From Aquiluna sp. (GTDB lineage: Bacteria; Actinomycetota; Actinomycetes; Actinomycetales; Microbacteriaceae), in assembly GCA_021741585.1 (NCBI GenBank), contig JAIOXN010000001.1, positions 609,059 through 673,058 on the forward strand: a DNA stretch of 64,000 nucleotides. The letters are read 5' to 3'. How positions within the stretch are numbered: the stretch's first letter is position 1; each line of letters starts with the position of its first letter. The position numbers were made by a program, and so were the translations under genes. Below are positions 16,940 to 59,373 of the stretch, in pieces. The notes under the pieces were generated by a model, which was not told the DNA's origin, did not search any database, and saw only the letters and a list, made by a program, of their open reading frames with translations.

Positions 16940-17347
16940 ATGTTGAGATTCCAAGTCCAAGCCCACCGTGTGGATGAAAAGGGTGCTGAGCTCACAACCA
17001 AGGAAGCTCGTCTTACCCTGGACACCAGCATTGCTGGAAGAGTAGATGCGCTAAACCCCGTTGAGTTGCTACTAGCCTCCCAGGCCGCTTGCTTTATAAA
17101 AGGTATTGAACGCCTTGCCCTCACCTTAAACTTTGATTACACCGGGGTTGAGGTGTCGCTCGAGGCAGATAGACCAGAGGATCAAGCTCGTATTTCACAG
17201 CTGAGATATCAGATACAGATCGATACAAAGGAAAGCGATCAGAGACTCGAGCTTTTGCACAAAAACCTGAAAAAGCAAGGCACCATCTACAACACGATTA
17301 GCGCCGGGACCGAGCTAATTGGCTCGGTTGCTAGATCAAATAGGTAA
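16940..17347 (+). CDS. OsmC/Ohr-family peroxiredoxin-like protein.
   Basis: NPVELLLASQAAC motif with the conserved Cys; 135 aa. Confidence 0.7.
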   Translation: MLRFQVQAHRVDEKGAELTTKEARLTLDTSIAGRVDALNPVELLLASQAACFIKGIERLALTLNFDYTGVEVSLEADRPEDQARISQLRYQIQIDTKESDQRLELLHKNLKKQGTIYNTISAGTELIGSVARSNR

Positions 17348-17356
17348 ATTGGAACC

Positions 17357-17707
17357 ATGAGCACACCAAATCCTTATGCATCAAGCGACTACTCTCCAGA
17401 AACCGAAAAGCTACTTTCGGTTGCCATTCACCTACTAGCTATCCCATTTGAGTTTTTCGCACCGGTGATTGGCTACTTCGTTTTCAAGGACAAGGGTCCG
17501 TTCATTAGTCACCACGTTAAAGAGTCGATTAACTTCAGCATCACGATGCTTTTGGTCGTGGTAGTCCTCGCGGTTTCGATTATCGGCTGGGCATTCCTTT
17601 GGGCACCACCGATCTACTGGGCCATCATGAGAATCATCGCAGCGGTGAAAGCTGCTCAAGGTGAGTTCTATAAATACCCATTCACTCTCAGGTTGATAAC
17701 TTCCTAG
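17357..17707 (+). CDS. DUF4870-like small membrane protein.
   Basis: 116 aa, two or three TM helices; pattern typical of the DUF4870 family. Confidence 0.45.
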   Translation: MSTPNPYASSDYSPETEKLLSVAIHLLAIPFEFFAPVIGYFVFKDKGPFISHHVKESINFSITMLLVVVVLAVSIIGWAFLWAPPIYWAIMRIIAAVKAAQGEFYKYPFTLRLITS

Positions 17708-17723
17708 AGCAAGTCTCAAGTAA

Positions 17724-17760
17724 CAAAAGAACCCCTGATTTTCATCAGGGGTTCTTTTGT
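17724..17760. terminator. Bidirectional rho-independent terminator between convergent genes.
   Basis: aaaagaacccctgat-tttc-atcaggggttcttttgtt: perfect 11-bp stem flanked by A-run and T-run. Confidence 0.7.
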
Positions 17761-17969
17761 TAGCGAACTAAATTGGTCCAAGCCAAACTCAGCAGGAATA
17801 GACCTGCGCTGAGAAAGGCGAAGCCAAGCCCAAGACCCATCGGTGATCTCCAACCATGCCAACGTTCTTGATAATCAAAACGCTTTCTGGTCCAAGAGTC
17901 CCTGAGTTCAACCCAGTCCGACATTTCCTGGAGGTTCTTTTGTTTCTTTTCCTCGTTCATGTTCTTCAC
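17760..17969 (-). CDS. Hypothetical small membrane protein (69 aa).
   Basis: Lys/Glu-rich N-terminus and a single C-terminal TM helix. No family recognised. Confidence 0.3.
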   Translation of the reverse strand: MKNMNEEKKQKNLQEMSDWVELRDSWTRKRFDYQERWHGWRSPMGLGLGFAFLSAGLFLLSLAWTNLVR

Positions 17970-18188
17970 TTTCTTCGAATCGATTTGAGTGAAGCTGAAT
18001 AATCAACATAAAAAGGCTTCGGAGAAAATCTTAGCCGTTGGATTTGCGATAAACAGGGGCTTTTTGTCTGAATTGATATGCGCTTACAGATTTCTGAAAT
18101 TCTCCTGCTGTGCATCAACTGCCCAAGTTTTACCTGAGTTTTGCGTCAAATCATTAAGAAAGTTAACTCGTCGCTTCGTCGTGAATAT

Positions 18189-18202
18189 TGGGAACGCTTC
18201 CA
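18189..18202. promoter_or_regulatory. LacI/CebR-type operator (TGGGAACGCTTCCA), distal site.
   Basis: 14-bp near-palindrome matching the CebR-box form TGGGAGCGCTCCCA. Lies in the AT-rich leader 120 bp upstream of the SBP gene. Confidence 0.55.
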
Positions 18203-18281
18203 GTTGCCTCAGGCTCATAACATATGCATAACAAGTCATATTCCAAGCGATATTTCTCTTGTTTCTCACTATGTTTCTCTG

Positions 18282-18295
18282 TGGGAGCGTTCCCA
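18282..18295. promoter_or_regulatory. LacI/CebR-type operator (TGGGAGCGTTCCCA), proximal site.
   Basis: Second copy of the same 14-bp motif, 27 bp upstream of the SBP start codon. Confidence 0.55.
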
Positions 18296-18322
18296 TAACT
18301 ATTTCCACGAGAGAAGGAACAC

Positions 18323-19618
18323 ATGGCTACAGCTAAGCGCTACATGGGTTTCGTCAGCCTCGCAGCCGCATCAGGATTAATCCTGTCGGGGTGTGCAGCT
18401 ACGACTGAAACTTCATCAACCAGTTCAGCGTCAAACGGAGGCACAGAAGCCTCTGCAGACCAGAAGGTACTTCAGTTCTGGGCATTCGGCGACATGGGTC
18501 TAGGCGACCTAATCGCTGAGTACGAAGAAATGAACCCAGACATCAAGATCAACATGAAGGTCAGCGACTTTGACCCTCACCACCAGGGTCTATTGACCTC
18601 CCTTGACTCTGCAGCTCCAGACATCGCTGCAATCGAGGTTGGCTACTCATCTTTGTTCAAGGCTGTTGCTGGCAAGTTCACTGACCTTGCAGAGTACGGC
18701 GCAGCTGATGTCGCAGGTGACTACCTCGACTGGCGCTGGAACCACGGTGTTGACCTAGACGGTCGCATTTTCGGTATTCCTACCGATGTGGGCCCAATGA
18801 CCATTTGCTACCGCTCCGACCTATTTGCTGAGGCTGGCTTGCCAACCGACCGCGACGAGGTAAGCGCTCTATGGCCAACCTGGGAAGACTTCATTGCAGT
18901 TGGCGAGCAGTATGTTGCCGCAACTGGAAACAAGTTCCTTTCTTCAACCGGTTACGTATGGAACGCAGTAAAGAACCAGTCCACCGAGAAGTTCTACTCG
19001 GCTGACGGCTCAAGCTTGATCTACGAGACCAACCCACAAATCCAAAAGGCATGGGACCTATCTGTTGCAGCGACTCCAATCGCAGCAAACATTGGTGACT
19101 GGACTGCCGACTGGAACGCTGGTATGAACAACGGCGCTTACGCCGTTCTTACCTGCCCAGCTTGGATGATGGGTTACATCCAGGGTCAGGCTCCTGACCT
19201 TACCGGTGCATGGGATGTTGCAACAATGCCTGAGGGCAGCGGCAACTGGGGTGGCTCACAGCTAACCGTTCCAGCACGTGCACAGTACCCAGAAGAGGCT
19301 GCAAAGTTCATCCTTTGGATCCTTTCTGCAGAGAACCAGTTGAAGCTATTCAAGGCAAGCGGACAGTTCCCATCGACCCTTGCAGCATACGAAGATGCAG
19401 AGCTACTTGCATTTGAGAGCGAGTACTTCAACAACGCTCCAGTTGGATCAATCTACGCAGAGGGTGTCAAGCAGTTGGCTCCAATCTACGAGGGTCCAAA
19501 AGAGCGCGTCATCGACCAGGAGTTCGGTGCAGCACTTGGCCGTATCGCCAATGGCGACCAGTCTGAGGCTGACGCCTGGGCTGAGGCTGTAAACAACATC
19601 AAGCGCGATGTTGGCTAA
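18323..19618 (+). CDS. Sugar ABC transporter substrate-binding lipoprotein (CebE/BglE-like).
   Basis: Lipobox LILSGC; family-1 extracellular solute-binding architecture; 431 aa. Confidence 0.8.
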   Translation: MATAKRYMGFVSLAAASGLILSGCAATTETSSTSSASNGGTEASADQKVLQFWAFGDMGLGDLIAEYEEMNPDIKINMKVSDFDPHHQGLLTSLDSAAPDIAAIEVGYSSLFKAVAGKFTDLAEYGAADVAGDYLDWRWNHGVDLDGRIFGIPTDVGPMTICYRSDLFAEAGLPTDRDEVSALWPTWEDFIAVGEQYVAATGNKFLSSTGYVWNAVKNQSTEKFYSADGSSLIYETNPQIQKAWDLSVAATPIAANIGDWTADWNAGMNNGAYAVLTCPAWMMGYIQGQAPDLTGAWDVATMPEGSGNWGGSQLTVPARAQYPEEAAKFILWILSAENQLKLFKASGQFPSTLAAYEDAELLAFESEYFNNAPVGSIYAEGVKQLAPIYEGPKERVIDQEFGAALGRIANGDQSEADAWAEAVNNIKRDVG

Positions 19619-19633
19619 TAACTAAAAACAAAC

Positions 19634-19669
19634 GCCCCATGGTCCAGGCTCCGGCTTGGGCCATGGGGC
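19634..19669 (+). other. Intercistronic mRNA hairpin between the SBP and permease genes.
   Basis: gccccatggtcca...tgggccatggggc, a 13-bp stem with one G-U. No T-run follows, so it probably acts as a stabiliser or partial attenuator rather than a terminator. Confidence 0.5.
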
Positions 19670-19693
19670 ACCCAACCAGCAAGAGGATTTTCA

Positions 19694-20596
19694 ATGGCTA
19701 CAAACAGTAAGAAGCTTCACCGGGCAGACCGCGTTTCCGGATTTCTCTATACCTCGCCGTTCTTTTTGATATTTGCTGTCTTCGGAATGTTTCCGATCGT
19801 CTACACCTTCTGGGTCGCTTTCCATAAGTGGGACCCGTTCTCCGAACCAAAGTGGATCGGGCTCGATAACTTCACAAACCTCATGGCCGATGACCGGCTT
19901 TGGCTCGCGGTAAAGAACACATTTAGCATCTGGCTGCTCAGCAGCGTCCCGCAGATCATCTTCGCCTTGTTCTTGGCATGGGTGCTAAACCACTCCCGCA
20001 TTCGCGGAAACACTTTCTGGCGCAGCGTTGTGCTGATCCCAAACATCACATCAGTGGTTGCAGTTGCGGTTGTATTCGGACAACTCTTTGGTCGCGAATA
20101 CGGCATGGTCAACTGGCTACTAACAGTTCTAGGCTTCTCCCCAATCGACTGGGTGAATGGAAGCTTTGCATCACACGTTCTTATTTCGATCATGGTTATC
20201 TGGCGCTGGACCGGATATAACGCACTTATTTATTTGGCAGCTATGCAGGCTGTTCCCGAAGAGCTTTATGAAGCAGCAGAGATTGATGGTGCTTCTAAGT
20301 TCCGCCAGTTCATCTCAGTCACCATTCCGCAGATTCGCCCAACCCTGATCTTCACCATCATCGTTAGCACAATCGGTGGATTGCAGATCTTTGCAGAGCC
20401 ACTGATTTTGGATGGCCAAGGCTACGGCGGTGGCGTGAGCCGCCAGTTCAGCACCGTGACACTGTTCATGTTTGAGCAGGGATTCTCGAGATTCGAGTAC
20501 GGCTACGCATCGGCAATCGCGATCGTGCTGACCGTAATCATCATCAGCATCTCGCTTGTCAACTTCCTAATTGTCCGCAAGATTCAGAAGGCGTAA
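19694..20596 (+). CDS. Carbohydrate ABC transporter permease (MalF/CebF type).
   Basis: EAA-like motif ...AAEIDGASKFRQF...; 6 TM helices. Confidence 0.85.
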   Translation: MATNSKKLHRADRVSGFLYTSPFFLIFAVFGMFPIVYTFWVAFHKWDPFSEPKWIGLDNFTNLMADDRLWLAVKNTFSIWLLSSVPQIIFALFLAWVLNHSRIRGNTFWRSVVLIPNITSVVAVAVVFGQLFGREYGMVNWLLTVLGFSPIDWVNGSFASHVLISIMVIWRWTGYNALIYLAAMQAVPEELYEAAEIDGASKFRQFISVTIPQIRPTLIFTIIVSTIGGLQIFAEPLILDGQGYGGGVSRQFSTVTLFMFEQGFSRFEYGYASAIAIVLTVIIISISLVNFLIVRKIQKA

Positions 20597-20598
20597 TC

Positions 20599-21465
20599 AT
20601 GACTGCAATTGAGGCAAACGTTCACAAGGACCAAAGTTCGCTTGGAACCAGGCGAATCAGAGGTCGGCATTACATCCTTCTGGCGGTTGTTGCGCTACTG
20701 TCCTTCTTCCCCTTCTATTGGATGTTTGTAATTTCATCCAATGACTCATCCGCAATCACCAACATCCCGCCGGTTGTGGTTCCAGGACCAAACTTCCTGA
20801 GATCGCTTGGCATGGTCAATGAGATCATCAACTTCTCGGTTCCACTATTGAACAGCTTGTTTGTGGCATCAGTTGTTGCCCTTAGCCAGGTGTTCTTCAG
20901 CACCTTGGCCGGGTTTGCTTTTGCAAAGCTAAGGTTCCGCGGCAAGGGGCCACTGTTCATTTTCATTCTTGCAACGATGACAGTGCCAACCGGATTGGGA
21001 ATCATCCCTTTCTACTTCCTAATGTCGAACCTGGGCCTAATCAACACTTTGGCATCTGTAATCCTCCCGGGCCTAACAACCGCTTTTGGTGTGTTCTGGA
21101 TGCGACAGACCATTGATGGTGGGGTTCCTGACGAACTGATTGAGGCGGCCAAGATTGATGGCGCTTCAAACTTCAGGATCTACCGCTCTATTGTTCTCCC
21201 AGCGATTAGACCTACTGCAACAGTTCTAGGGCTATTTGGGTTCTTGGCTGCTTGGAATGACTTCATGTGGCCACTGTTGAGCTTGAACTCGCCAGAAAAC
21301 TTCACGGTTCAGGTTGCTGTTCGTCAGCTTAGATCCGCATACTTCATTGATTACTCCCTACAAATGACAGGTGCCTTCTTGGCCACTGTGCCATTGTTAA
21401 TCCTGTTCGCTTTGGTAGCCCGCAGAATGGTTGCCGGAGTTATGGCTGGAGCTATCAAGGGATAG
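20599..21465 (+). CDS. Carbohydrate ABC transporter permease (MalG/CebG type).
   Basis: EAAKIDGASNFRIYRSIVLP motif; 6 TM helices. Confidence 0.85.
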   Translation: MTAIEANVHKDQSSLGTRRIRGRHYILLAVVALLSFFPFYWMFVISSNDSSAITNIPPVVVPGPNFLRSLGMVNEIINFSVPLLNSLFVASVVALSQVFFSTLAGFAFAKLRFRGKGPLFIFILATMTVPTGLGIIPFYFLMSNLGLINTLASVILPGLTTAFGVFWMRQTIDGGVPDELIEAAKIDGASNFRIYRSIVLPAIRPTATVLGLFGFLAAWNDFMWPLLSLNSPENFTVQVAVRQLRSAYFIDYSLQMTGAFLATVPLLILFALVARRMVAGVMAGAIKG

Positions 21466-22519
21466 GTGTCAATTGGATCAAAACGGTAAACGCAAGGCAA
21501 GGGCAACCCTGGTCGAAGTAGCCGAACTCGCATTAGTTTCAAAATCCACGGTTTCCCGAGTCATCAACGAGGATGCCGCTGTATCCGAAGAGGCTAGACA
21601 AAGAGTTCTGGATGCTATTAGAGCAACCGGCTATCGCGTTAACCAAAGCGCAAGGGCGCTTGTTTCAAACAAGACTGGCGCCATTGCCGTCGCAATTTAC
21701 GAACAGCTAGCCACCTATTTCACAAGCTCGTTCTCAGGTGCGATGGTTACTGCTCTGCAGGACTTCTTCTTTGAGAGGGACCTTCAGGTTTTGATTCTGC
21801 CTGCGCCTAACCGCGAGCGTCAAAAGCGCATTGAGAAGTACATCTACGAAGGCCACGTCGATGGAGCAATCCTGCTGGGTCCGGTGAGAGAAGACATCTT
21901 GCTCTCTGACCTACTCAGCGCCCAGGTTCCAATTGTTGTGGGTGGTCGCCCAATCGGCTCAGACTCGGTTTCCTATGTTGACATCGATAATGCCAAAGCC
22001 TCAGAGCTGGCTGTTCAAGAACTTATCCGCAGCGGCCGCAAGACAATTGGTTTCATAACCGGGCAGCTCTCAAACGCCTCCGCCACCGACCGCCTCCGAG
22101 GCTACAAGCTCGCAATTGATGGCTCGGATGCTAGGGATGATGAGACTCTAATCGGCATTGCCGACTGGGGCTATGAGTCTGCAGCGATTGCGACCAGAAA
22201 GCTACTCGAGCTGCACCCGGAGCTAGACGCTATTTTCTGCTCCAATGACCTAATGGCCACAGCCGCCATCGCAGTCATCCGAGACTCTGGGAGAAAGATT
22301 CCAGAAGATATTGCCGTTATTGGTTTTGACGATTCGCCAATAGCACTTAGAACCACTCCTCAACTCACCTCGGTGGCACAGAGCCCCGAGGACTATGCCC
22401 GAGCACTTGGGGAGAATCTGCTCAAGCAAATGTCAGGTGAAGATCTAAGTCCGAAACCTGTAATCCTGCCAACACAAATTGTGTGGCGCGACAGCTTCAA
22501 ACCAGAAAATCATAAATAA
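21431..22519 (+). CDS. LacI-family transcriptional regulator (CebR-like). The start is uncertain; an in-frame TTG at 21473 is likely.
   Basis: HTH ATLVEVAELALVSKSTVSRVIN followed by a periplasmic-binding-fold sugar sensor domain. The first 14 codons of the ORF-track model overlap the preceding permease. Confidence 0.8.
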   Translation: MPELWLELSRDRCQLDQNGKRKARATLVEVAELALVSKSTVSRVINEDAAVSEEARQRVLDAIRATGYRVNQSARALVSNKTGAIAVAIYEQLATYFTSSFSGAMVTALQDFFFERDLQVLILPAPNRERQKRIEKYIYEGHVDGAILLGPVREDILLSDLLSAQVPIVVGGRPIGSDSVSYVDIDNAKASELAVQELIRSGRKTIGFITGQLSNASATDRLRGYKLAIDGSDARDDETLIGIADWGYESAAIATRKLLELHPELDAIFCSNDLMATAAIAVIRDSGRKIPEDIAVIGFDDSPIALRTTPQLTSVAQSPEDYARALGENLLKQMSGEDLSPKPVILPTQIVWRDSFKPENHK

Positions 22520-22527
22520 GGAGAGAA

Positions 22528-23910
22528 ATGAAGTTTCCAGAAAATTTCCTATGGGGTTCTGCGACCTCCTCGTATCAAATCGAGGGTGCAGCAACTCAGG
22601 ATGGAAGAGGGCCTAGCATCTGGGACACTTTCTCTCACACTCCAGGCAAGGTAGTCGGTGGTGACACCGGCGACATCGCCATCGATCACTACAACCGCAT
22701 GCCAGAAGATGTCCAAATCATGAAGGACATGGGACTACAGGCATATCGCTTCTCCATCGCATGGTCCAGAATCATGCCAGAGGGCAAAGGTGCGATTGAG
22801 AAGCGCGGACTCGACTTCTACTCACGTCTAACCGATCAGCTCCTAGAGCAAGGCATCAAGCCACTGCCTACTTTGTATCACTGGGACCTCCCAGAAGCTT
22901 TGGACAAAGAAGGTGGCTGGCTCAACAGAGACACAGCCCAACATTTTGCAGATTATTCAGCGGTCGTTTTCGAGACACTTTCGGACCGCATCGACACCTG
23001 GGCAACCCTAAACGAACCTTGGTGTTCCGCATTCTTGGGCTACGGCGCCGGCATCCACGCGCCAGGCCACCAAAACGCTGCAGAGGCTTTCAAGGCTGCT
23101 CACCACTTGCTATTGGGTCATGGAAAAGCGGTTGAGGCAATGCGCTCAATGAAGCCAGAGCACAAGCTTGGAATCGTTCTAAACCTGGCACCGGTTTACC
23201 TGATCGGTGAAGCACCAGCTGATCACCCAGCCCATCAGGCAATCGCGTTGCAGGATGCAATGCTGAATCGACTCTGGCTAAATTCAATTCTTAGCGGTGA
23301 ATACCCAAGCACTTTGCTGGACCTAGGTTCGGTATTTACTTCCTCTGTCCAAGAAGGCGACCTTGCTCAAATCAGTCGCCCATTGGATTGGTTGGGAGTG
23401 AACTACTACCAAGACTCTCGTTCGGTGCCAGATTTCTCGGGCTCCACCTCCGGGTATATCGACAGCACTGGCAACGGCTCAATGCCAGGCTCGCAGGGAG
23501 TAAAGCCAGCACCTGCAGTTGGTGAAATAACTGATTTCGGTTGGTCAACCACCCCAGATGGCTTGCGAGTTCTTTTGGAGTCGCTAGATCAGGACTATGA
23601 AAACATGCCGCCGATCATGATCACCGAAAACGGCTGTGCATACGATGACCCAATGGTTGATGGTGTCATTGACGATAAGCGCAGAATTGCTTACCTAACA
23701 GATCACCTAAAGGCTGTTTCTGAGGCAATCGAGCAGGGCGTTGACGTTCGTGGATACATGCACTGGTCACTCTTTGACAACTTCGAGTGGGCAGAGGGCT
23801 ACAGCAAGCGTTTCGGCCTAATCCACGTTGATTTTGAAACCCAAAAGAGAACCTTGAGAAACTCTGCAAAGTTGTACAGCAAGATCATTCGGAACAATGG
23901 CGATATCTAA
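22528..23910 (+). CDS. bglB: GH1 beta-glucosidase.
   Basis: Catalytic acid/base TLNEPW and nucleophile ITENG; N-terminal FLWGSATSSYQIEGA. Confidence 0.9.
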   Translation: MKFPENFLWGSATSSYQIEGAATQDGRGPSIWDTFSHTPGKVVGGDTGDIAIDHYNRMPEDVQIMKDMGLQAYRFSIAWSRIMPEGKGAIEKRGLDFYSRLTDQLLEQGIKPLPTLYHWDLPEALDKEGGWLNRDTAQHFADYSAVVFETLSDRIDTWATLNEPWCSAFLGYGAGIHAPGHQNAAEAFKAAHHLLLGHGKAVEAMRSMKPEHKLGIVLNLAPVYLIGEAPADHPAHQAIALQDAMLNRLWLNSILSGEYPSTLLDLGSVFTSSVQEGDLAQISRPLDWLGVNYYQDSRSVPDFSGSTSGYIDSTGNGSMPGSQGVKPAPAVGEITDFGWSTTPDGLRVLLESLDQDYENMPPIMITENGCAYDDPMVDGVIDDKRRIAYLTDHLKAVSEAIEQGVDVRGYMHWSLFDNFEWAEGYSKRFGLIHVDFETQKRTLRNSAKLYSKIIRNNGDI

Positions 23911-24808
23911 GCCAATAGCCATTGCAATCAGCATGCTGATTGCTACATCTACCCTCACAGGATGCGCAATGAGCGAACCAACCGATCCAAACTTGCTTTG
24001 GTCTCAAGAATTTGATGGCGAAGCAGGGTCTGCGTTGGACTCAACCTATTGGACTGCTGAGATTGGTGATGGCGGCTCAAAAGGTATTCCAGGCTGGGGC
24101 AACAGTGAGCGCCAGTATTACCTAGAAGAGGCCGCACGCACCGATGGCGAAGGAAACTTGGTCATCACTGCAACCAAGATGCCGGTTTATAGCAAGGACA
24201 ATCCAGATGGGATGCCAACCGAGGAGAATCCATACCTCTGCTATTACCTAACCGCTTGTGAGTGGACCAGTGCCAGAGTTATTACCGAGAACAAACTTTC
24301 CTTTATGTATGGCCGCATGGAAACCAGAATCAAAATGGGTGGCGGCCAAGGAGCATGGCCTGCATTCTGGATGCTCGGCACAAACATCGAGCAGGTCGGT
24401 TGGCCACAAAGCGGCGAAATCGACATCATCGAGTCTCTTGGACGAGACCCAATGACCGCATATGCAACTTTGCATGGGCCTGGATACTTTGCCGGCCAAG
24501 GCTATGGTGCAACCAGCGCTAGGCCGGATGCCCTGGCCGATGATTTCCACGTTTATGCGATCAACTGGAAACCTGACTACATCGAGTGGGAAATCGATGG
24601 CGAGGTTTTCCACACCGCCACGCCTGAGGATGTAGCTCCCAATGAATGGGTCTACAACCAACCGTTTTACCTCTTGATGAACCTGGCAATGGGCGGTGGC
24701 TTTGGTGGAAACATCGATCCAAAACTTGAGTCTTCACAAATGTCAGTTGATTACATCAGGTACTCAAAATACGAAGGCTTTGGGGAAATTTCCGAGACCT
24801 CGGAGTAA
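23897..24808 (+). CDS. GH16 beta-1,3(-1,4)-glucanase (laminarinase-type) lipoprotein.
   Basis: Lipobox LTGC; GH16 catalytic motif GEIDIIE (ExDxxE). Confidence 0.8.
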   Translation: MAISKPIAIAISMLIATSTLTGCAMSEPTDPNLLWSQEFDGEAGSALDSTYWTAEIGDGGSKGIPGWGNSERQYYLEEAARTDGEGNLVITATKMPVYSKDNPDGMPTEENPYLCYYLTACEWTSARVITENKLSFMYGRMETRIKMGGGQGAWPAFWMLGTNIEQVGWPQSGEIDIIESLGRDPMTAYATLHGPGYFAGQGYGATSARPDALADDFHVYAINWKPDYIEWEIDGEVFHTATPEDVAPNEWVYNQPFYLLMNLAMGGGFGGNIDPKLESSQMSVDYIRYSKYEGFGEISETSE

Positions 24809-24833
24809 TCGCGTTCCGAAAGTTTGGACCAGG

Positions 24834-25277
24834 TCAGGCCAGCTTCAGAGCAATCATCACTTGCCCACCACCAGAGCTGATTTGAGTAGCGAACGAGAGC
24901 TCTGGTGCAAGGCGGGTAAGTCTGTCCAATAGCCAATCCGAGGCCTTATCTGCATCGTTTTGGTCTGGGCAGCGCGCAATGATTTCCCTGCCGCCTTTAT
25001 TGCGAAGTCGCTCTACCGTTTCAAAAATTGGAGATGGGTCAACAACAAGCAAGTCACTCCCCCATGGAACAACCGGGGAGATTTTGCCCTTCATTGTGTT
25101 GCACTGGCGATGAGCTAAACGCTCAACAAAGGCAGCGCCCTTCTTGACCCTGATTGCTCCGTAGCTATCAACACTTGGGCCAAGGTCGTTGTTCACAGAC
25201 ATGTCTGGATCGACGCTTTTATCGCATAACCAACAGGTCCAATTGTCTTGGGTTCCAACTTCGTTCAAATCGCTCAT
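24834..25277 (-). CDS. Hypothetical protein with a degenerate HNH-like zinc-finger core.
   Basis: CWLC ... HRQCNTMKG (a CxxC plus the HxxCNxxKG ending typical of HNH nucleases); 147 aa. No canonical DH dyad. Confidence 0.35.
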   Translation of the reverse strand: MSDLNEVGTQDNWTCWLCDKSVDPDMSVNNDLGPSVDSYGAIRVKKGAAFVERLAHRQCNTMKGKISPVVPWGSDLLVVDPSPIFETVERLRNKGGREIIARCPDQNDADKASDWLLDRLTRLAPELSFATQISSGGGQVMIALKLA

Positions 25278-25357
25278 TAGTGCAGATTACGCCAGGAACG
25301 ACTGATTGCAGCTCAGCTCAAGTAAAGAGTTCACCTTCGCTGGTTAGACTCGGTTAA

Positions 25358-26215
25358 ATGAGTGCGATTTTGGTGGAAAACCTCAGAAAAACCTACGGGA
25401 AATCAGACGCAGTCTCTGAGGTCTCTTTTGATGTTCAACAGGGTGAGACTTTTGTGTTGCTTGGACCAAATGGCGCTGGAAAGTCAACAACCATTGAAAT
25501 TCTTGAAGGACTCAGAGTTAGAACTTCGGGGGATGTCAGAGTTCTTGGCCATGATCCGCAGCAGCTTAGCCGCGACTTCAAGTCACGCATCGGAATCGTT
25601 CAGCAATCCGCCGGTGACCTGGGAAGGCTTTCGGTTCGAGACATAGTCACTCACTTTGCCTCGCTCTATCCAAACCCAAGATCAATTGACGAGGTAATCG
25701 CTGCAGTTGGCCTCGAGGGCAAAGCATCCGAGCCTGTCAAGAAGCTCTCTGGTGGCCAGGCCCACCGAGTCGATGTCGCACTTGGCTTGATTGGCAATCC
25801 AGAGGTTCTATTTCTGGATGAGCCGACAACTGGCTTCGACCCTGAAGTTCGCAGAGCATTTTGGGAGGTAATACGTGGCCTCCAGAACGAGGGGATGACA
25901 ATCATGCTCACCACTCATTACCTAGATGAAGCAGAAGAACTAGGGCATCGTGGTGGCGTGATAGTAGACGGCAAGCTAGTAGCCCTTGGAAACATTGAAG
26001 AACTTGGCGGGAAAGAATCCAGAACCCCGGTTGTGACATGGACCGAAAACGGTGAGGAACAGAACCACAAAACCACAAGCCCAGCCTGGTTTATCGGCGA
26101 ACTTTCTCAAAGACTCCAGGCTGAGCCTCAAAACCTCCAAATCCGGGTTCCATCTCTTGAAACCGTATATCTCGAACTTGTGAATCAGCACAGAGGGGCA
26201 AACCATGCAGACTAA
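25358..26215 (+). CDS. ABC transporter ATP-binding protein (ABC-2/DrrA-like).
   Basis: Walker A GPNGAGKST, signature LSGGQ, Walker B LFLDEPT. Confidence 0.85.
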   Translation: MSAILVENLRKTYGKSDAVSEVSFDVQQGETFVLLGPNGAGKSTTIEILEGLRVRTSGDVRVLGHDPQQLSRDFKSRIGIVQQSAGDLGRLSVRDIVTHFASLYPNPRSIDEVIAAVGLEGKASEPVKKLSGGQAHRVDVALGLIGNPEVLFLDEPTTGFDPEVRRAFWEVIRGLQNEGMTIMLTTHYLDEAEELGHRGGVIVDGKLVALGNIEELGGKESRTPVVTWTENGEEQNHKTTSPAWFIGELSQRLQAEPQNLQIRVPSLETVYLELVNQHRGANHAD

Positions 26216-27023
26216 ACTCCCCGGCACATTAGAAGTGGGCTTCAAAAGAATTGGATACGAACTAAAGAACTATTTGCGGACGCCTGACGCACTTTTTTTC
26301 AACTTCTTCTTTCCCATTCTTATGTTGGTGATCTTTACAGTCGCGTTCTCCCAAGGTGAGCTTGATTTTCCTGGGCTCGACAGAACTCTGGTTTCCGCAG
26401 ATTTCTATTTGCCTGCAATGCTGGCGATGGGGGTATTGGTTTCTGGAACCCAAAACTTAGGAATTGACATTGCAATTGAGCGACACGATGGTACTCTCAG
26501 ACGGCTGTCCGGAACCCCAATCTCTGTTGTCTCCTATTTCATTGGGAAGTTTGGCCAGGTTCTAATCTCAGGCACCGCTCAGGCGTTGTTTCTGATTGCC
26601 GTTGCCAAGTTTGGTTTTGGAGCAAATCTTCCGACTACGGCTGAGGCTTGGCTAACGGTGGCCTGGGTTTTCTATCTTGGCTTGATCGCAACCAGCGTCC
26701 TTGGAATCGCAATCAGTTCACTCCCTAGAAGTGCAAAGAGTGCGAATAGCGTGATATTGCCTCCTGTGCTCATTTTGCAATTCATCTCAGGGGTTTATCT
26801 CGCCTTTGCGGATTTGCCAGGTTGGTTGCAAAACATTGCCAGTATTTTTCCGCTCAAATGGATTGCACAAGGATTTAGAGCCACATTCTTTCCCGATGAA
26901 TTCAAGGTGGCTGAACTAGGCGGAGCCTGGAATCTAGATCAAGTTGCTATTGCCCTCGGGATTTGGGTTGTGATTGGAACCACAGCTACTTTGCTTAGTT
27001 TCAGGTGGACAAGAAGGGCGTAA
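26205..27023 (+). CDS. ABC-2 family transporter permease.
   Basis: 6 TM helices; ABC-2 type; overlaps the ATPase gene by 11 nt, consistent with one operon. Confidence 0.75.
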   Translation: MQTKLPGTLEVGFKRIGYELKNYLRTPDALFFNFFFPILMLVIFTVAFSQGELDFPGLDRTLVSADFYLPAMLAMGVLVSGTQNLGIDIAIERHDGTLRRLSGTPISVVSYFIGKFGQVLISGTAQALFLIAVAKFGFGANLPTTAEAWLTVAWVFYLGLIATSVLGIAISSLPRSAKSANSVILPPVLILQFISGVYLAFADLPGWLQNIASIFPLKWIAQGFRATFFPDEFKVAELGGAWNLDQVAIALGIWVVIGTTATLLSFRWTRRA

Positions 27024-27072
27024 GCCTAGACTTGCACCGAACAGTTTTTGATAAAAAAGAATAAGGACGAAG

Positions 27073-28464
27073 ATGTTCCCAAAGGATTTCACCTGGGGTG
27101 TTGCAACCTCTAGCTACCAAATTGAGGGTGCCGCATATGAAGACGGCAAAGGCAAGTCGATCTGGGACACATTCTGTGAAGAGCCCGGCCGAGTAAACAA
27201 CAGCGATAACGGCTTAGTGGCAAACGATCACTATCACCGCTACCCCGAAGATGTCGCCCTAATGAAGTCAGTTGGTGCGAAGGCCTATCGATTCTCAATC
27301 TCTTGGCCAAGACTTTTCCCAAACGGAGACCAGGTCCGCGAAGAGCGTGGGTTTGCCTTCTATCACAAGCTCCTTGATGAGCTTGATGCGGCTGGCATTG
27401 AGCCAGTGCTAACCCTCTACCACTGGGATCTGCCTCAAGCACTGCAAGATAAAGGCGGCTGGGCAAACCGAGACATCGTCAAGGCTTTCGAGTATTACGC
27501 TCAAGAAGTTGCCAAGGAATTTGGAGCCAGAGTAAAGCGATTCTCCCCAATCAATGAACCTTGGGTTGTTTCATGGCTTGGCTACGGAATGGGAGTCCAT
27601 GCTCCTGGAATTCAAGATATCGGCCAAGCTGTTGCCGCCTCTCACCACACGGTTATGGCACACAATGCAGCTCTGAGGGCAATCAAGTCGATCGCGCCAA
27701 CCGCACTGGTTGGTCCAGTTTTGAATCAGGCCATGCCAGATGTTGACGACGTATTTGATCCTGAGCAGATGCAAGCTGCAAAAGTGATGGATGCTCAGCA
27801 AAACCTGTTCTGGATGGAAGGAATCTTCCGTGGCGAGTACCCGCAACTGATTTGGGATATCTATGGAGACCACCTAAAGAAGGTAGTTCAGCCTGGAGAT
27901 CTTGATGTGGCTGAAAATGACTGGCTTGGAATCAATTTCTATTTCAATTCTCGCATTGGGCACAAGGTTCCAAAGGACCACTTCTCAAGGGCACGAGTGA
28001 TTGACCAGCTTATGGATTACGCAGTTGAAGGCCAATCAATGGGTCCACTGACAGACATGGGCTGGCCAGTAACGCCATATGGCATCGGTGACCTGCTTGT
28101 TCGCTGGACCAGGGAATACGGCGCACAAGTGCCACAGATGTTTATCACCGAGAACGGTTGCGCCTATGAGGTTGGGCCGGATACATCAGGCCAGGTTCAC
28201 GACACCGATCGAATTTCTTACCTCAATGACCACCTTTTGAGCGTTGCAGATGCAATTGCACGAGGTGCAGATGTTGGTGGATATTTCCAGTGGTCGTTGA
28301 TGGACAACTTTGAGTGGGCCGAAGGCTACTCAAAGCGCTTTGGAATTGTCTATGTGGACTTTGATACCCAGGAGAGAATTCCAAAGGAATCTGCGAAGTT
28401 CTACTCGAAAGTTATCGAAACTCAGGGTGCGAATCTCACAAGGAGACAAACCCTAGTTTCCTAG
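27073..28464 (+). CDS. GH1 beta-glucosidase, second paralog.
   Basis: FTWGVATSSYQIEGAA; INEPW; ITENGCAY. Confidence 0.9.
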   Translation: MFPKDFTWGVATSSYQIEGAAYEDGKGKSIWDTFCEEPGRVNNSDNGLVANDHYHRYPEDVALMKSVGAKAYRFSISWPRLFPNGDQVREERGFAFYHKLLDELDAAGIEPVLTLYHWDLPQALQDKGGWANRDIVKAFEYYAQEVAKEFGARVKRFSPINEPWVVSWLGYGMGVHAPGIQDIGQAVAASHHTVMAHNAALRAIKSIAPTALVGPVLNQAMPDVDDVFDPEQMQAAKVMDAQQNLFWMEGIFRGEYPQLIWDIYGDHLKKVVQPGDLDVAENDWLGINFYFNSRIGHKVPKDHFSRARVIDQLMDYAVEGQSMGPLTDMGWPVTPYGIGDLLVRWTREYGAQVPQMFITENGCAYEVGPDTSGQVHDTDRISYLNDHLLSVADAIARGADVGGYFQWSLMDNFEWAEGYSKRFGIVYVDFDTQERIPKESAKFYSKVIETQGANLTRRQTLVS

Positions 28465-28890
28465 TTGGGAAATAATCTTTTCGATTCTGGATTGCTTGGT
28501 TGCTGAGGCTTTGGCCTCAGTCACCTGCCTTGCAATTTCTTTGCGCTTTGAATAGCTAAGAGACTCGAAGGTTTCTTTCACCCCGGCACCAATAAGTGCG
28601 GTGATTAGATCTTGAGGCATGTCAACTTCGCGTCGTCCCACTTCTAATTCAAGGTAAACCTCGACCTCGTCACCAGCTTCAACCCCGGCCTGGTCACGGT
28701 TTGCTCTTGGAAATACGACGTGACACTCGCCATTTACACCAGTTGCGGTGCTTTGGTAGGTATGACCGTTTATTGTCACCTTTAGCGCTGCGCGCCGATT
28801 AGCACCTAATTCAGCCAAGACCTCGTCTGGAATATGCAGCGAGGCGTGAGGGCCATTGCCCACTACAACCGTCAGGTAACTAACGCCCAT
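28453..28890 (-). CDS. DUF1905 / YdeI-OmpD-associated family protein.
   Basis: 145 aa; N-terminal beta-rich DUF1905-like region and C-terminal KRKEIARQV...RIEKII helix typical of YdeI-like proteins. Confidence 0.45.
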   Translation of the reverse strand: MGVSYLTVVVGNGPHASLHIPDEVLAELGANRRAALKVTINGHTYQSTATGVNGECHVVFPRANRDQAGVEAGDEVEVYLELEVGRREVDMPQDLITALIGAGVKETFESLSYSKRKEIARQVTEAKASATKQSRIEKIISQLGN

Positions 28891-28924
28891 TGCTAATTGC
28901 TCCGTGATTGAGGTTGCCGCTTAG

Positions 28925-29728
28925 TTAGCTAACAATCGCCGGAATGATCGCTCCGGAGAATACCTGCCAGGCAAGCAATGACTTAGCCACCAAGCTCAAG
29001 GTGATATAGGTCTTTTCTCCAAACAGGTAGTTCTTCCATGGGCCGACCTTTTTGTACTGGAAGGCCTGGTTGAAGGCGAAGGTATTGAAGAAAATGAAGA
29101 TTGCAATCACGATGCCATAGACAAAGCCAGGAATCTCAGCGGCGCTAGAGCTGCCAGGCTGGATTATGTAGACCGCAAGAATCAACCAAGGGACAATTCC
29201 GGTGATGGAACCCATGATGAATGGAAGACCCTTACCGTTTCCTGGTGTCTCATATTTTTCTTGCAGTGCACCAAAGAAAATCATCGATGCGTTCACGCCA
29301 AAGATTGCAACTAGGGCTGCAAAGTTAGAAACACCATTTAGCTGTGCGATCAGCCAGATCATCACTGAGGATGACAACGAGTACTCAACCCAGCGGAAGT
29401 AATTGTGGTTCTGCTTGAGTCCTGCTTTGTATCGCCCAAAGAACATTGGGGAGGAAATGATGAAGTGGAACAGGGCAGATAGTGCCAAAAACCCAACGAC
29501 ACCGGCACCGATGTTGATGTCAAAGAGCTCGACTCGCTCAGGAGGAATCGGCACACCCGGAGGGCCCGCTGGATACTCAATGGTTACCGGGAAAAGAATC
29601 TGGTTATCAAGCAGGGTCAGAACATATGTCAGACCAAGTGCTTGGGCAAGGTGAAGAAATCCTGCCACCACGTTGTATCTGCGAAGACCCTTGATTTGAG
29701 TATCTATATCTTTTACGCGTCTGGCCAT
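28925..29728 (-). CDS. Heliorhodopsin: 7-TM retinal-binding protein with inverted topology.
   Basis: 267 aa, 7 TM helices. Matches HeR hallmarks: FLHLAQ (His in TM1), ALFHFI (His in TM2), FRWVEYSLSSSVM (Glu counterion in TM3), IFGVNASM, PGFVYGI, and SLVAKSLLAWQVFSG (Schiff-base Lys in TM7). Collinear with the 48C12 prototype. Confidence 0.9.
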   Translation of the reverse strand: MARRVKDIDTQIKGLRRYNVVAGFLHLAQALGLTYVLTLLDNQILFPVTIEYPAGPPGVPIPPERVELFDINIGAGVVGFLALSALFHFIISSPMFFGRYKAGLKQNHNYFRWVEYSLSSSVMIWLIAQLNGVSNFAALVAIFGVNASMIFFGALQEKYETPGNGKGLPFIMGSITGIVPWLILAVYIIQPGSSSAAEIPGFVYGIVIAIFIFFNTFAFNQAFQYKKVGPWKNYLFGEKTYITLSLVAKSLLAWQVFSGAIIPAIVS

Positions 29729-34731: not shown

Positions 34732-35589
34732 ATGACTTTGACCAAAGAGCACTGGGTTCTCACATTTGTTTGCCCAGATAAAAAAGGTATTGTCCACGCC
34801 ATCACAGGTGCGGTTGTGGAAATTGGCGGGAACATCACCGAGAGCAAGCAATACACCTCTTTGGACACCGGTCGCTTCTTCATGAGATTGCAGATCGAGG
34901 CGGAAATCACCAAGGAAGCCTTTGGCCAACAGTTTGAACAGATCGCCAAAGACTTTGAAATGGAATATGTGCTCGACCACGTCGAGCGCAAAATGAAGAC
35001 CTTGGTCTTAGTATCCAAGGCTGGGCACGCTCTAAACGATTTACTTTTCCGCCAGCGAGCAGGGCAGCTTCCAATCGAAATCCCAATGGTTTTTGCTAAT
35101 CACCCGGAACTCAAAGAGCTCACCAATTTCTTTGGAGTCCCTTTTGAGAGTCATGAGATCAAGAACAATGTGGACAAGGCGCTTTTTGAAAAACGACTTC
35201 GTGAGTTCATCCACGAGAACCAGATTGAGCTAATTGTTCTGGCCCGCTACATGCAGATTCTCTCCCCTGAGTTCTGCAAAGAATTTGCCGGCAAAATCAT
35301 CAACATCCACCACAGCTTCTTGCCTGGATTCAAAGGCGCTAACCCATATGCACAGGCTCACGCCAGAGGTGTGAAGCTCATTGGTGCCACCGCTCACTTT
35401 GTAACCGAGGATCTCGATGAGGGACCAATCATCGAACAAAACGTCACCCGAGTTGAGCACTCGGAATCAAAGAGCCAATTAGTTTCAATTGGACAGGACG
35501 CGGAGTCCAAAACCCTGACCCAGGCGGTCAAATGGTTCGCCGAACACCGCGTCCTGCTTGATGGTCAAAGAACCATCATTTTCCGCTAA
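34732..35589 (+). CDS. purU: Formyltetrahydrofolate deformylase.
   Basis: N-terminal ACT domain plus formyltransferase core (INIHHSFLP, HFVTEDLDEGPII). Confidence 0.85.
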   Translation: MTLTKEHWVLTFVCPDKKGIVHAITGAVVEIGGNITESKQYTSLDTGRFFMRLQIEAEITKEAFGQQFEQIAKDFEMEYVLDHVERKMKTLVLVSKAGHALNDLLFRQRAGQLPIEIPMVFANHPELKELTNFFGVPFESHEIKNNVDKALFEKRLREFIHENQIELIVLARYMQILSPEFCKEFAGKIINIHHSFLPGFKGANPYAQAHARGVKLIGATAHFVTEDLDEGPIIEQNVTRVEHSESKSQLVSIGQDAESKTLTQAVKWFAEHRVLLDGQRTIIFR

Positions 35590-57129: not shown

Positions 57130-57132
57130 AAC

Positions 57133-57402
57133 CTAGCCCTTTAGAAATTCTTGAATCTGAGCAATTAGCGACTGTGCCAAAGCTTCATCTTCGGTGTCAA
57201 TCTCGACGCTTAGCTCTTCACCAGTTTTGGCCTTGAGGGCCATCATGCGAAGAGGGGAGTTTGCCTTGACTAGCTCTTCGCCAGCCTTGCCCATGCGGAT
57301 TTCCAAACCGGACTCTTTTACCAATTTCACGATCTGGCCAGCAGGTCTTGCGTGCAGACCAATTGGATCTTCGATAGTGACGGTTGCGGTAACGGTGGCC
57401 AT
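57133..57402 (-). CDS. ptsH: Phosphocarrier protein HPr.
   Basis: 89 aa; active-site region GLHARPAG. Confidence 0.9.
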   Translation of the reverse strand: MATVTATVTIEDPIGLHARPAGQIVKLVKESGLEIRMGKAGEELVKANSPLRMMALKAKTGEELSVEIDTEDEALAQSLIAQIQEFLKG

Positions 57403-57452
57403 GGGAGTCTCCTTTTGGTAAAGCGGTGTCTAAATCTTAGTTTCGAGAAGTG

Positions 57453-58598: not shown

Positions 58599-58629
58599 TT
58601 CTATTTACCTGCCTTTTCGCAGTTTGTAG

Positions 58630-59371: not shown

Positions 59372-59373
59372 GA

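What the first reader, a model, noticed from the sequence alone, without database searches (positions are those of the whole stretch)
17970..24808. Beta-glucan/cellodextrin-type uptake locus with two CebR-box-like operators and no cognate ATPase
The AT-rich leader carries two copies of a CebR-box-like 14-mer (TGGGAACGCTTCCA at 18189..18202; TGGGAGCGTTCCCA at 18282..18295). Downstream lie a lipoprotein SBP, two permeases, a LacI regulator, a GH1 beta-glucosidase and a GH16 laminarinase lipoprotein (EIDIIE catalytic motif). The GH16 gene suggests the substrate is laminarin or mixed-linkage glucan oligosaccharides from algae rather than cellulose. No ABC ATPase is encoded locally, which is consistent with a shared MsiK-type ATPase elsewhere in the genome.
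Basis: partly seen in the sequence, partly recalled or inferred. Interest (0 to 1): 0.5.

Follow-up and report, generated by a model that had tools for sequence, protein, structure and literature searches.

The report
Repressor-controlled beta-glucan uptake operon, Aquiluna
This is an ordinary but cleanly built six-gene sugar operon in a small planktonic actinobacterium (Aquiluna-like): a surface enzyme probably cuts algal beta-1,3-glucan (laminarin), a transporter imports the fragments, an internal enzyme splits them to glucose, and a built-in CebR/CelR-type repressor probably switches the whole set through two conserved operator sites.

Summary
Both 14-mers are at the stated coordinates. They are the only strong matches to the CebR/CelR box in the 64 kb window. 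The six genes are as described: lipoprotein CebE-like binding protein, two permeases, LacI regulator, GH1 beta-glucosidase, and GH16 laminarinase-type lipoprotein with EIDIIE.

The source is Aquiluna-like (Luna-1 Microbacteriaceae). Thirteen related environmental or MAG contigs repeat the gene order as far as each extends, and eight carry all six genes. All nine contigs with enough upstream DNA keep two boxes 92-94 bp apart. The consensus of 18 such sites is exactly TGGGAGCGCTCCCA.

The regulator's closest solved homologue is Thermobifida CelR, at 38% identity. No MalK/MsiK-type ATPase lies in the operon or the window.

The laminarin assignment rests on the GH16 gene. The binding protein's sugar pocket does not distinguish beta-1,3 from beta-1,4 ligands.

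Expressed clusters of the same composition (GH16, cellobiose-type ABC transporter, LacI, GH1) were already reported in Luna-1 Rhodoluna MAGs (PMC12915301, 2026). This is therefore a new member of a known kind.

I found no published description of three details. One is the fixed two-operator geometry. Another is the regulator gene sitting inside its own operon. The third is a conserved GlnR-box-like direct repeat 64-65 nt upstream of the proximal operator.

The parts
18189..18202 (.). Distal CebR/CelR-type operator, TGGGAACGCTTCCA (palindromic), 134 nt upstream of the SBP start codon
   Evidence: 21.9 bits. A distal box lies at -127 to -137 in all 9 related leaders. S. scabiei has its CebR site at -131 of cebE (PMC4890002).
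18217..18232 (+). Conserved direct repeat ATAAC-N6-ATAAC. It is GlnR-box-like and is a candidate site for an OmpR-family activator. Function not shown.
   Evidence: It is the only match in the window (expected 0.09). It sits 64-65 nt upstream of the proximal box in all 9 leaders. Published GlnR boxes have the form GTnAC-n6-GTnAC and t/gTAAC-n6-Gc/aAAC (PMC10704036).
18270..18275 (+). -10-like hexamer TATGTT (inferred promoter element). It would place the transcription start at about the first bases of the proximal operator.
   Evidence: A TAnnnT hexamer starts 7-12 nt upstream of the proximal box in 7 of 9 leaders. The other two show CATTAT or CACTAT in the alignment. The consensus sigma-70 scan found nothing here. 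This is inference only.
18282..18295 (.). Proximal CebR/CelR-type operator, TGGGAGCGTTCCCA, 41 nt upstream of the SBP start codon
   Evidence: 23.9 bits. Present at -33 to -45 in all 10 related leaders, including the short L036 leader.
18323..19618 (+). Lipoprotein solute-binding protein, CebE family (431 aa, lipobox LSGC, Cys24)
   Evidence: Pfam SBP_bac_1/8. PDB 5ixp E 6e-85 and 8bfy CebE E 5e-79. The non-reducing glucose subsite is fully conserved.
19694..20596 (+). ABC permease, MalF/CebF type (300 aa)
   Evidence: Pfam BPD_transp_1. NCBIfam UgpA/GlcT-like.
20599..21465 (+). ABC permease, MalG/CebG type (288 aa)
   Evidence: Pfam BPD_transp_1. NCBIfam UgpE/GlcU/MalG-like.
21473..22519 (+). 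LacI-family repressor, CelR/CebR-like (348 aa from TTG 21473; the mechanical ORF starts at 21431)
   Evidence: Pfam LacI plus Peripla_BP_3. Best solved homologue is 5ysz at E 5e-65 and 38% identity. Start chosen and the 348-aa protein P0001.
22528..23910 (+). Cytoplasmic GH1 beta-glucosidase, BglC-like (460 aa, no signal peptide)
   Evidence: TIGR03356, 592 bits above the cut-off of 478.5. NEP at aa 162 and ENG at aa 367.
23897..24808 (+). GH16 endo-beta-1,3-glucanase (laminarinase-type) lipoprotein (303 aa, lipobox LTGC, Cys23, EIDIIE at aa 174-179 = nt 24416-24433). Its start overlaps the GH1 stop by 14 nt.
   Evidence: Pfam Glyco_hydro_16. PDB laminarinases 3azx and 4dfs at E 1e-61, lichenases at about 1e-7. 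Motif coordinates.

Best explanation
This is a self-contained, substrate-inducible beta-glucan utilisation operon of an Aquiluna-like (Luna-1) actinobacterium.

Inferred working:
1. The membrane-anchored GH16 endo-beta-1,3-glucanase cuts laminarin-type glucan at the cell surface.
2. The lipoprotein CebE-like binding protein captures the oligosaccharides.
3. The two permeases import them. Power comes from a MalK/MsiK-type ATPase encoded somewhere else.
4. The cytoplasmic GH1 beta-glucosidase splits them to glucose.
5. Without substrate, the CelR/CebR-like LacI repressor, encoded inside the operon and therefore autoregulated, binds two 14-bp palindromes. One lies at about the transcription start and the other 93 bp upstream. 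An imported disaccharide (laminaribiose and/or cellobiose) releases it.

Shown by sequence: gene identities, lipoboxes, catalytic motifs, the two boxes and their conservation, and the absence of a local ATPase.

Inferred: repressor-box binding, the inducer, the substrate linkage, the promoter position, and the remote ATPase.
For: - Gene families.
- Tight spacing of the six genes (gaps of 75, 2, 7, 8 and -14 nt), implying one transcript.
- The same gene order, as far as each contig extends, in 13 related contigs whose regulators are 58-86% identical to the window's. Eight contigs carry all six genes.
- Two boxes in every one of the 9 leaders with enough upstream DNA, 92-94 bp apart, while the DNA between them is otherwise poorly conserved.
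- The consensus of 18 sites is exactly TGGGAGCGCTCCCA. This is the experimentally bound CebR site of Streptomyces (PMC4890002).
- In the other loci fetched with the SBP as query, the box (at least 15 bits) appears only where a LacI gene lies downstream in the operon (L006, L023, L026, L027) and in L013, where no LacI hit was found. It appears in none of 20 other Streptomyces, Kineococcus, Microbacterium and further loci, including L021, whose LacI is 66% identical to CelR.
- The GH16 gene groups with laminarinases and has the six-residue ExDxxE form, not the lichenase ExDxE form. The meaning of the two motif forms is established GH16 knowledge.
- Clusters of the same composition are transcribed in situ in Rhodoluna MAGs (PMC12915301).
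- In Streptomyces the ATPase MsiK is likewise encoded away from cebEFG (PMC4890002). The C. thermocellum cellodextrin transporter B also lacks a local ATPase gene (PMC9601137).
Against: - No experiment on this protein set exists.
- The regulator is only 38% identical to CelR, and its recognition helix reads VSKSTVSRVIN against VGRGTVSRVIN in CelR.
- The binding protein's reducing-end subsite differs from CebE, but that subsite varies across the whole family, including the CelR-linked loci without GH16. It therefore says nothing decisive about beta-1,3 versus beta-1,4.
- GH16 laminarinase-group enzymes can also cut mixed-linkage glucan.
- No sigma-70 consensus promoter was detected.
- The ATPase partner was not located.
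Confidence: 0.8

Rival explanations
1. This is a classical cellobiose/cellodextrin (cellulose-derived) CebR-CebEFG-BglC system. The GH16 gene is an accessory, and beta-1,4-linked sugars are the transported substrate and inducer.
For: The closest characterised relatives of the SBP (CebE, 8bfy) and the regulator (CelR, 5ysz) handle cellobiose or cellotriose. The box is identical to the cellobiose-responsive CebR box. The CebE residues that contact the non-reducing glucose and Y307 are conserved.
Against: None of the window ORFs submitted to the family searches is a cellulase. The only extracellular enzyme in the cassette is of laminarinase type, and it is kept in every related contig that reaches that position. 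All side chains contacting the reducing-end glucose of cellotriose are replaced: T424G, D425A, Q281D, Q235N, Q417R. A related SBP, CbpB, binds both sugars in one site, so homology to a cellobiose binder does not exclude laminaribiose (PMC9601137).
Confidence: 0.15
2. The substrate is mixed-linkage beta-1,3/1,4-glucan or another beta-1,3-glucan source (fungal or yeast wall, bacterial curdlan) rather than algal laminarin.
For: Some laminarinase-group GH16 enzymes are beta-1,3(4)-glucanases; PDB hits 7wwc and 7ww4 carry that name. A Gram-positive locus with a surface GH16 plus an ABC importer serves mixed-linkage glucan in Blautia producta (PMC10318527).
Against: The host is a planktonic photoheterotroph of waters where laminarin is the abundant soluble beta-glucan (PMC12422013 and PMC12915301). 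The catalytic motif is the laminarinase form ExDxxE, and lichenases match only at about 1e-7.
Confidence: 0.15
3. The two palindromes are not operators of the embedded LacI protein. They are either bound by another regulator or are conserved for some other reason.
For: No binding data exist. The regulator's recognition helix differs from CelR at two positions.
Against: The boxes travel with this regulator gene in all related contigs, whatever the neighbouring genes are. The same motif is found only in loci with a CelR-like LacI in the operon, plus L013. The proximal box overlaps the inferred transcription start.
Confidence: 0.05

Closest known systems
Streptomyces CebR-CebEFG-BglC / MsiK cello-oligosaccharide system (S. 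reticuli, S. griseus, S. scabiei)
   Same: - CebE-family lipoprotein SBP, two permeases and a GH1 beta-glucosidase.
- LacI-family repressor and the 14-bp box TGGGAGCGCTCCCA, with a site about 131-134 nt upstream of the SBP gene.
- The ATPase is not encoded in the operon (PMC4890002).
   Different: - Here the repressor gene lies inside the operon, between the second permease and GH1, instead of being divergently transcribed.
- Both boxes are in one leader, 93 bp apart. Streptomyces has one upstream of cebE and one upstream of bglC.
- A GH16 laminarinase-type lipoprotein is added.
- The SBP is about 40% and the regulator 38% identical to the characterised proteins.
- The reducing-end sugar contacts of CebE are replaced.
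Thermobifida fusca CelR (PDB 5ysz) and the cebEFG-bglC-celR loci of Nocardiopsis, Marinitenerispora, Aeromicrobium and a Micromonosporaceae MAG (L006, L021, L023, L027)
   Same: CelR is the best solved homologue of the regulator. The box motif is the same, and the regulator gene lies in the same transcription direction as the transporter genes.
   Different: Those regulators are 55-67% identical to CelR, against 38% here. Their gene order is GH1 then LacI, and they have no GH16. Their box number and spacing differ: one box, or two about 55 bp apart.
Beta-1,3-glucan CAZyme gene clusters of Luna-1 Rhodoluna MAGs (PMC12915301, AEM 2026)
   Same: Same bacterial lineage and same listed components: GH16 endo-beta-1,3-glucanase, cellobiose-type ABC transporter, LacI regulator and GH1. 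They are transcribed in estuarine water.
   Different: The published clusters carry up to four GH16 genes and a sigma-70 factor gene. In the passages I read (term searches), that paper does not describe operators, promoter architecture or the missing ATPase. I could not compare sequences because its MAGs were not available to the tools.
Gram-positive beta-glucan loci with surface GH16 plus ABC importer (Blautia producta MLG locus); C. thermocellum transporter B/CbpB
   Same: The logic is the same: a cell-anchored GH16, SBP-dependent import, then cytoplasmic breakdown (PMC10318527). CbpB binds both cellodextrins and laminaribiose, and its operon also lacks the ATPase gene (PMC9601137).
   Different: These are different phyla. 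The intracellular enzymes differ (GH94 phosphorylase and GH3 instead of GH1), as do the regulators. The SBPs are only distantly related (7x0i, E 7e-8).

Membership tests
CebR/CelR subfamily of LacI repressors | N-terminal LacI HTH plus a periplasmic-binding-protein-like sugar domain | tested here: met
   Pfam PF00356 plus PF13377/PF00532.
CebR/CelR subfamily of LacI repressors | Closer to characterised CelR/CebR than to other characterised LacI regulators | tested here: met
   5ysz scores 223 bits (E 5e-65) against 143 bits for CcpA. It is nevertheless a divergent branch, at 38% identity. No CebR-specific NCBIfam model matched.
CebR/CelR subfamily of LacI repressors | 14-bp palindromic operator TGGGAGCGCTCCCA upstream of regulated genes | tested here: met
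   There are two sites in the leader. The consensus of 18 orthologous sites is identical to the published box.
CebR/CelR subfamily of LacI repressors | Binds the box in vitro and is released by cellobiose or cellotriose | not testable with these tools
   Needs EMSA with purified protein and candidate sugars.
CebEFG-MsiK type CUT1 ABC importer | CebE-homologous lipoprotein SBP plus two MalF/MalG-type permeases in one operon | tested here: met
   Lipobox LSGC.
CebEFG-MsiK type CUT1 ABC importer | ATPase not encoded with the transporter and supplied by a shared MsiK encoded elsewhere | tested here: inconclusive
   Absence from the operon and the 64 kb window is shown. Presence of msiK elsewhere in the genome could not be examined.
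CebEFG-MsiK type CUT1 ABC importer | Ligand is cellobiose or cellotriose | tested here: inconclusive
   Non-reducing subsite residues are conserved and reducing-end contacts are replaced. That subsite varies across the whole family, so it is not diagnostic.
GH16 laminarinase group (endo-beta-1,3-glucanases) | GH16 domain with the ExDxxE catalytic motif, and laminarinases as nearest characterised relatives | tested here: met
   PF00722. EIDIIE at aa 174-179. 3azx, 4dfs, 2hyk and 2vy0 match at E 1e-57 to 1e-61. CAZy subfamily numbering was not computed.
GH16 laminarinase group (endo-beta-1,3-glucanases) | Hydrolyses laminarin | not testable with these tools
   Needs an enzyme assay.
GH1 beta-glucosidase (BglC-like) | Scores above the curated cut-off of the GH1 beta-glucosidase model and has both catalytic glutamate motifs | tested here: met
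   TIGR03356, 592 bits against a cut-off of 478.5. NEP at aa 162 and ENG at aa 367.
GlnR-regulated promoters of actinobacteria | GlnR box (two 5-nt sites separated by 6 nt, such as GTnAC-n6-GTnAC) upstream of the promoter, bound by GlnR | tested here: inconclusive
   The sequence pattern RTAAC-n6-RTAAC is present and fixed in position in 9 leaders and resembles published boxes. No glnR gene or other GlnR target could be examined. I do not file the locus under this family.

The most novel reading that the evidence does not exclude
The Luna-1 cassette may be a laminarin-specialised offshoot of the Ceb system. In this reading the CelR-like repressor and the CebE-like binding protein have both shifted to laminari-oligosaccharides. 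The promoter would then integrate two signals. Repression would come through two operators held at a fixed 92-94 bp, the same distance as lac O1-O3. Activation would come through a conserved GlnR-box-like repeat at about -65 to -50, coupling algal-glucan use to nitrogen status in a genome-streamlined photoheterotroph.
Probability: 0.2. Interest if true: 0.45.

Novelty: new member of a known kind. Interest (0 to 1): 0.3.

Why it matters
Laminarin is one of the largest pools of labile carbon in surface waters, and its bacterial use is mostly described for Bacteroidota PULs. This cassette shows in sequence detail how very small planktonic actinobacteria could do the same job with a six-gene, self-regulated operon, and it offers a simple predicted switch that can be tested. 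It adds regulatory detail (operators, their geometry, a possible second control site) to clusters so far reported only as gene lists with transcript counts. It does not change how CebR-type systems are understood.

Tried and rejected
1. Other regulon members in the window. The weight-matrix scan found no further site above 13.4 bits. The second GH1 (27073-28464) and its ABC-2 exporter have no box.
2. SBP pocket as a test of beta-1,3 versus beta-1,4. The mapping onto CebE contacts was validated: all 24 residue names matched at an offset of 28. However, the reducing-end subsite turned out to vary in every clade, so I dropped it as evidence.
3. DNA looping by a LacI-like tetramer as the reason for the 92-94 bp spacing. 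The protein ends about 7 residues after the last core strand aligned to the CelR C-terminus and has no C-terminal heptad helix. A lac-type tetramer is therefore unlikely. The constant spacing may instead reflect promoter geometry. This remains open.
4. A consensus sigma-70 promoter or an intrinsic terminator. None was found in the leader or after GH16.
5. A structured RNA in the leader or operon. There were no Rfam matches in 17000-29000.
6. A local MalK-type ATPase. Motif and phmmer scans of all six frames found only exporter-type ATPases.
7. The weak 3-mismatch hits at 2922 and 3151. They lie within or just after an acetyl-CoA synthetase gene and score no more than 13.3 bits, so I treat them as chance.


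Full report
**Observation**

Against the canonical box TGGGAGCGCTCCCA they carry 2 and 1 mismatches. All six other hits in the 64 kb carry 3 mismatches, which is about what shuffles give.

The leader 17970-18322 is 40.5% G+C against 50.9% for the window.

The six genes are as described:

| Gene | Coordinates | Key evidence |
|---|---|---|
| SBP | 18323-19618 | lipobox LSGC |
| Permease | 19694-20596 | BPD_transp_1 |
| Permease | 20599-21465 | BPD_transp_1 |
| LacI regulator | 21473-22519 | LacI HTH plus sugar domain |
| GH1 beta-glucosidase | 22528-23910 | TIGR03356 592 bits (cut-off 478.5); NEP and ENG motifs |
| GH16 | 23897-24808 | lipobox LTGC; EIDIIE at aa 174-179 |

One correction concerns the regulator. 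Its mechanical ORF begins at 21431, inside the preceding permease gene. The real start is most likely TTG 21473, 7 nt after the permease stop and behind a GGGA/AGG stretch. That gives 348 aa, the length of a 99%-identical database protein and of the orthologue in L001.

The gaps between the six genes are 75, 2, 7, 8 and -14 nt, which indicates one transcript.

**Source and relatives**

The best genome match is an Aquiluna sp. MAG (L001). Its SBP is 81% identical, and it has the same six genes in the same order at 66-87% identity.

A protein search with the regulator found about 30 clusters at 58-99% identity, then a drop to about 42%. I fetched contigs for seven of these. Together with L001 that gives 13 contigs. 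Every one repeats the order SBP, permease, permease, LacI, GH1, GH16 as far as it extends, and eight carry all six genes.

The neighbouring genes differ between contigs:
- dnaX-recR-ask-asd side in the window and L001;
- a Cof-type hydrolase next to serS in L029 and L031, with a matching upstream end in L024 and L032;
- a TetR/glyoxalase pair in L028;
- an MIP channel in L034.

The cassette therefore behaves as a unit.

**Operators**

All nine leaders with at least 140 nt of upstream DNA contain two boxes. The distal box lies at -127 to -137 and the proximal at -33 to -45 from the SBP start. Their spacing is 92, 93 or 94 bp in every case. The DNA between them is otherwise poorly conserved.

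The symmetrised consensus of the 18 non-redundant sites is exactly TGGGAGCGCTCCCA, with R/Y at positions 6 and 9. Scanned with this matrix, the window gives 23.9 and 21.9 bits for the two sites and 13.4 for the next best. The lowest training site scores 17.3, and the 95th percentile of shuffle maxima is 16.1.

As a specificity control I scanned the other loci fetched with the SBP as query. Sites of at least 15 bits occur in five loci:
- L006, L023, L026 and L027, each with a LacI gene downstream in the operon. Their LacIs are 67%, 55%, 39% and 61% identical to CelR.
- L013, where no LacI hit was found.

No such site occurs in the 20 other loci. These include the Streptomyces and Kineococcus loci, whose LacI genes where present are at most 36% identical to CelR. 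They also include the Microbacterium loci L002 and L003 (41% and 39% to CelR) and L021, whose LacI is 66% identical to CelR.

TGGGAGCGCTCCCA is the site bound by CebR in Streptomyces. In S. scabiei it lies 131 nt upstream of cebE (PMC4890002).

**Regulator**

The best solved homologue is 5ysz, at 223 bits, E 5e-65 and 38% identity over the full length. CcpA is next at 143 bits. I know 5ysz as Thermobifida fusca CelR with cellobiose; that identification rests on my own knowledge.

The protein is therefore a divergent member of the CelR/CebR branch. Its recognition helix reads VSKSTVSRVIN against VGRGTVSRVIN in CelR.

It ends about 7 residues after the last core strand and has no LacI-type tetramerisation helix. 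I therefore do not attribute the fixed 92-94 bp spacing to lac-style looping, although the distance equals lac O1-O3 (own knowledge).

**Transporter**

The SBP matches S. scabiei CebE (8bfy, E 5e-79) and the Kribbella protein 5ixp (E 6e-85).

I mapped the 24 cellotriose-contacting residues of CebE (PMC10714786, table 2) onto it. All 24 reference letters matched at an offset of 28, which validates the mapping. The results by subsite were:
- Non-reducing glucose subsite: F70, E125, T172, D173, W303, W331, G333 and S334 are all conserved.
- Middle subsite: Y307 is kept and F282 becomes W.
- Reducing-end subsite: every side-chain contact is replaced (T424G, D425A, Q281D, Q235N, Q417R).

This looked like a linkage change, but the same subsite also differs in the CelR-linked loci that lack GH16. 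It is therefore not diagnostic.

C. thermocellum CbpB binds cellobiose and laminaribiose in one site, with differences only at the second subsite (PMC9601137). Homology to a cellobiose binder thus leaves the ligand open.

No MalK/MsiK-type ATPase is present. The window's only ABC ATPase domains are a DrrA-type subunit (25358-26215, paired with an ABC-2 permease) and two fused exporters. None of the related cassettes has an ATPase gene either. Whether an msiK gene exists elsewhere in the genome could not be tested.

**Enzymes**

The GH16 protein aligns with Thermotoga and other laminarinases at E 1e-57 to 1e-61, and with lichenases only at about 1e-7. Its catalytic motif is the six-residue form ExDxxE typical of laminarinases, not the ExDxE form of lichenases (established GH16 knowledge). 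Its lipobox places it on the outer face of the membrane. GH1 has no signal peptide.

**Mechanism**

The most likely sequence of events is:
1. surface cleavage of beta-1,3-glucan by GH16;
2. capture and import by the Ceb-like transporter with a remote ATPase;
3. hydrolysis to glucose by GH1;
4. repression by the embedded CelR-like protein at two operators, relieved by an imported disaccharide.

A -10-like hexamer (TATGTT, 18270-18275) starts 12 nt upstream of the proximal box. Comparable hexamers occur in the other leaders. The proximal box would then cover the transcription start.

Because the regulator gene is inside the operon, induction also raises repressor synthesis (autoregulation). All of this is inference from anatomy and from the Streptomyces and Thermobifida paradigm.

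**Third conserved element**

A direct repeat, ATAACATATGCATAAC at 18217-18232, is the only match to RTAAC-N6-RTAAC in the window (expected 0.09). An equivalent T[AT]AC-N7-TAAC repeat sits exactly 64-65 nt upstream of the proximal box in all nine leaders. Its form resembles published GlnR boxes, GTnAC-n6-GTnAC and t/gTAAC-n6-Gc/aAAC (PMC10704036). It may be an activator site. I could not test this.

**Comparison and novelty**

The system works like the Streptomyces CebR-CebEFG-BglC/MsiK system and meets the sequence-level membership criteria. It differs in three ways: the regulator gene is internal, both boxes lie in one leader, and a GH16 gene is added.

Clusters of the same composition were reported as transcribed in Rhodoluna MAGs of the same Luna-1 lineage (PMC12915301). 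[quoted passage not shown]

At the gene-content level the locus is therefore already known. The operator pair, its fixed geometry and the TAAC repeat are regulatory details I found in none of the papers my full-text searches returned.

I rate it a new member of a known kind, of modest interest.

Noticed in passing
window 18217-18232; also L001, L024, L028, L029, L031, L032, L034, L038 leaders: A direct repeat T[AT]AC-N7-TAAC sits exactly 64-65 nt upstream of the proximal operator in all nine leaders. It resembles published actinobacterial GlnR boxes and could be an activator site linking the operon to nitrogen status.
   Followed up: partly
window 28925-29728 (-): A heliorhodopsin gene (Pfam PF18761, E 5e-95) lies immediately downstream of the second GH1 gene.
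   Followed up: no
window 25358-28464 (+): A DrrA/DrrB-type ABC-2 exporter pair (25358-26215, 26205-27023) is followed 50 nt later by a second GH1 beta-glucosidase (27073-28464), which is 46% identical to the L001 operon GH1. This is an unusual pairing. No CebR-type box lies upstream.
   Followed up: partly
window 35576-37810 (-): A 744-aa protein has a match to the ALK/LTK glycine-rich domain (PF12810, E 3e-20), a domain named after animal receptor kinases.
   Followed up: no
window 55501-60486 (-): PtsI, mannitol dehydrogenase-family and PTS EIIC genes are present, consistent with a mannitol PTS but not confirmed as one. The genome would then combine mannitol uptake with a laminarinase cassette. 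PMC12422013 reports mtlA mainly in saltwater Aquiluna and beta-1,3-glucanase in no saltwater Aquiluna.
   Followed up: no
L002-L027 (loci fetched with the SBP as query): CebE-like SBP operons of Streptomyces, Kineococcus and Microbacterium have divergently transcribed LacI genes (where one is present) and no CebR-type box of at least 15 bits. They are probably controlled through a different operator.
   Followed up: partly
L030 7012-10407: In one related contig the cassette is followed by a 460-aa protein with no Pfam hit and two more BPD_transp_1 permeases. This may be a second sugar importer whose binding protein is unrecognised.
   Followed up: no
window 24834-25277 (-): A 147-aa ORF converges on the GH16 gene, 25 nt from its stop. 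It has no Pfam or NCBIfam match, and no terminator-like hairpin was detected between the two genes.
   Followed up: no
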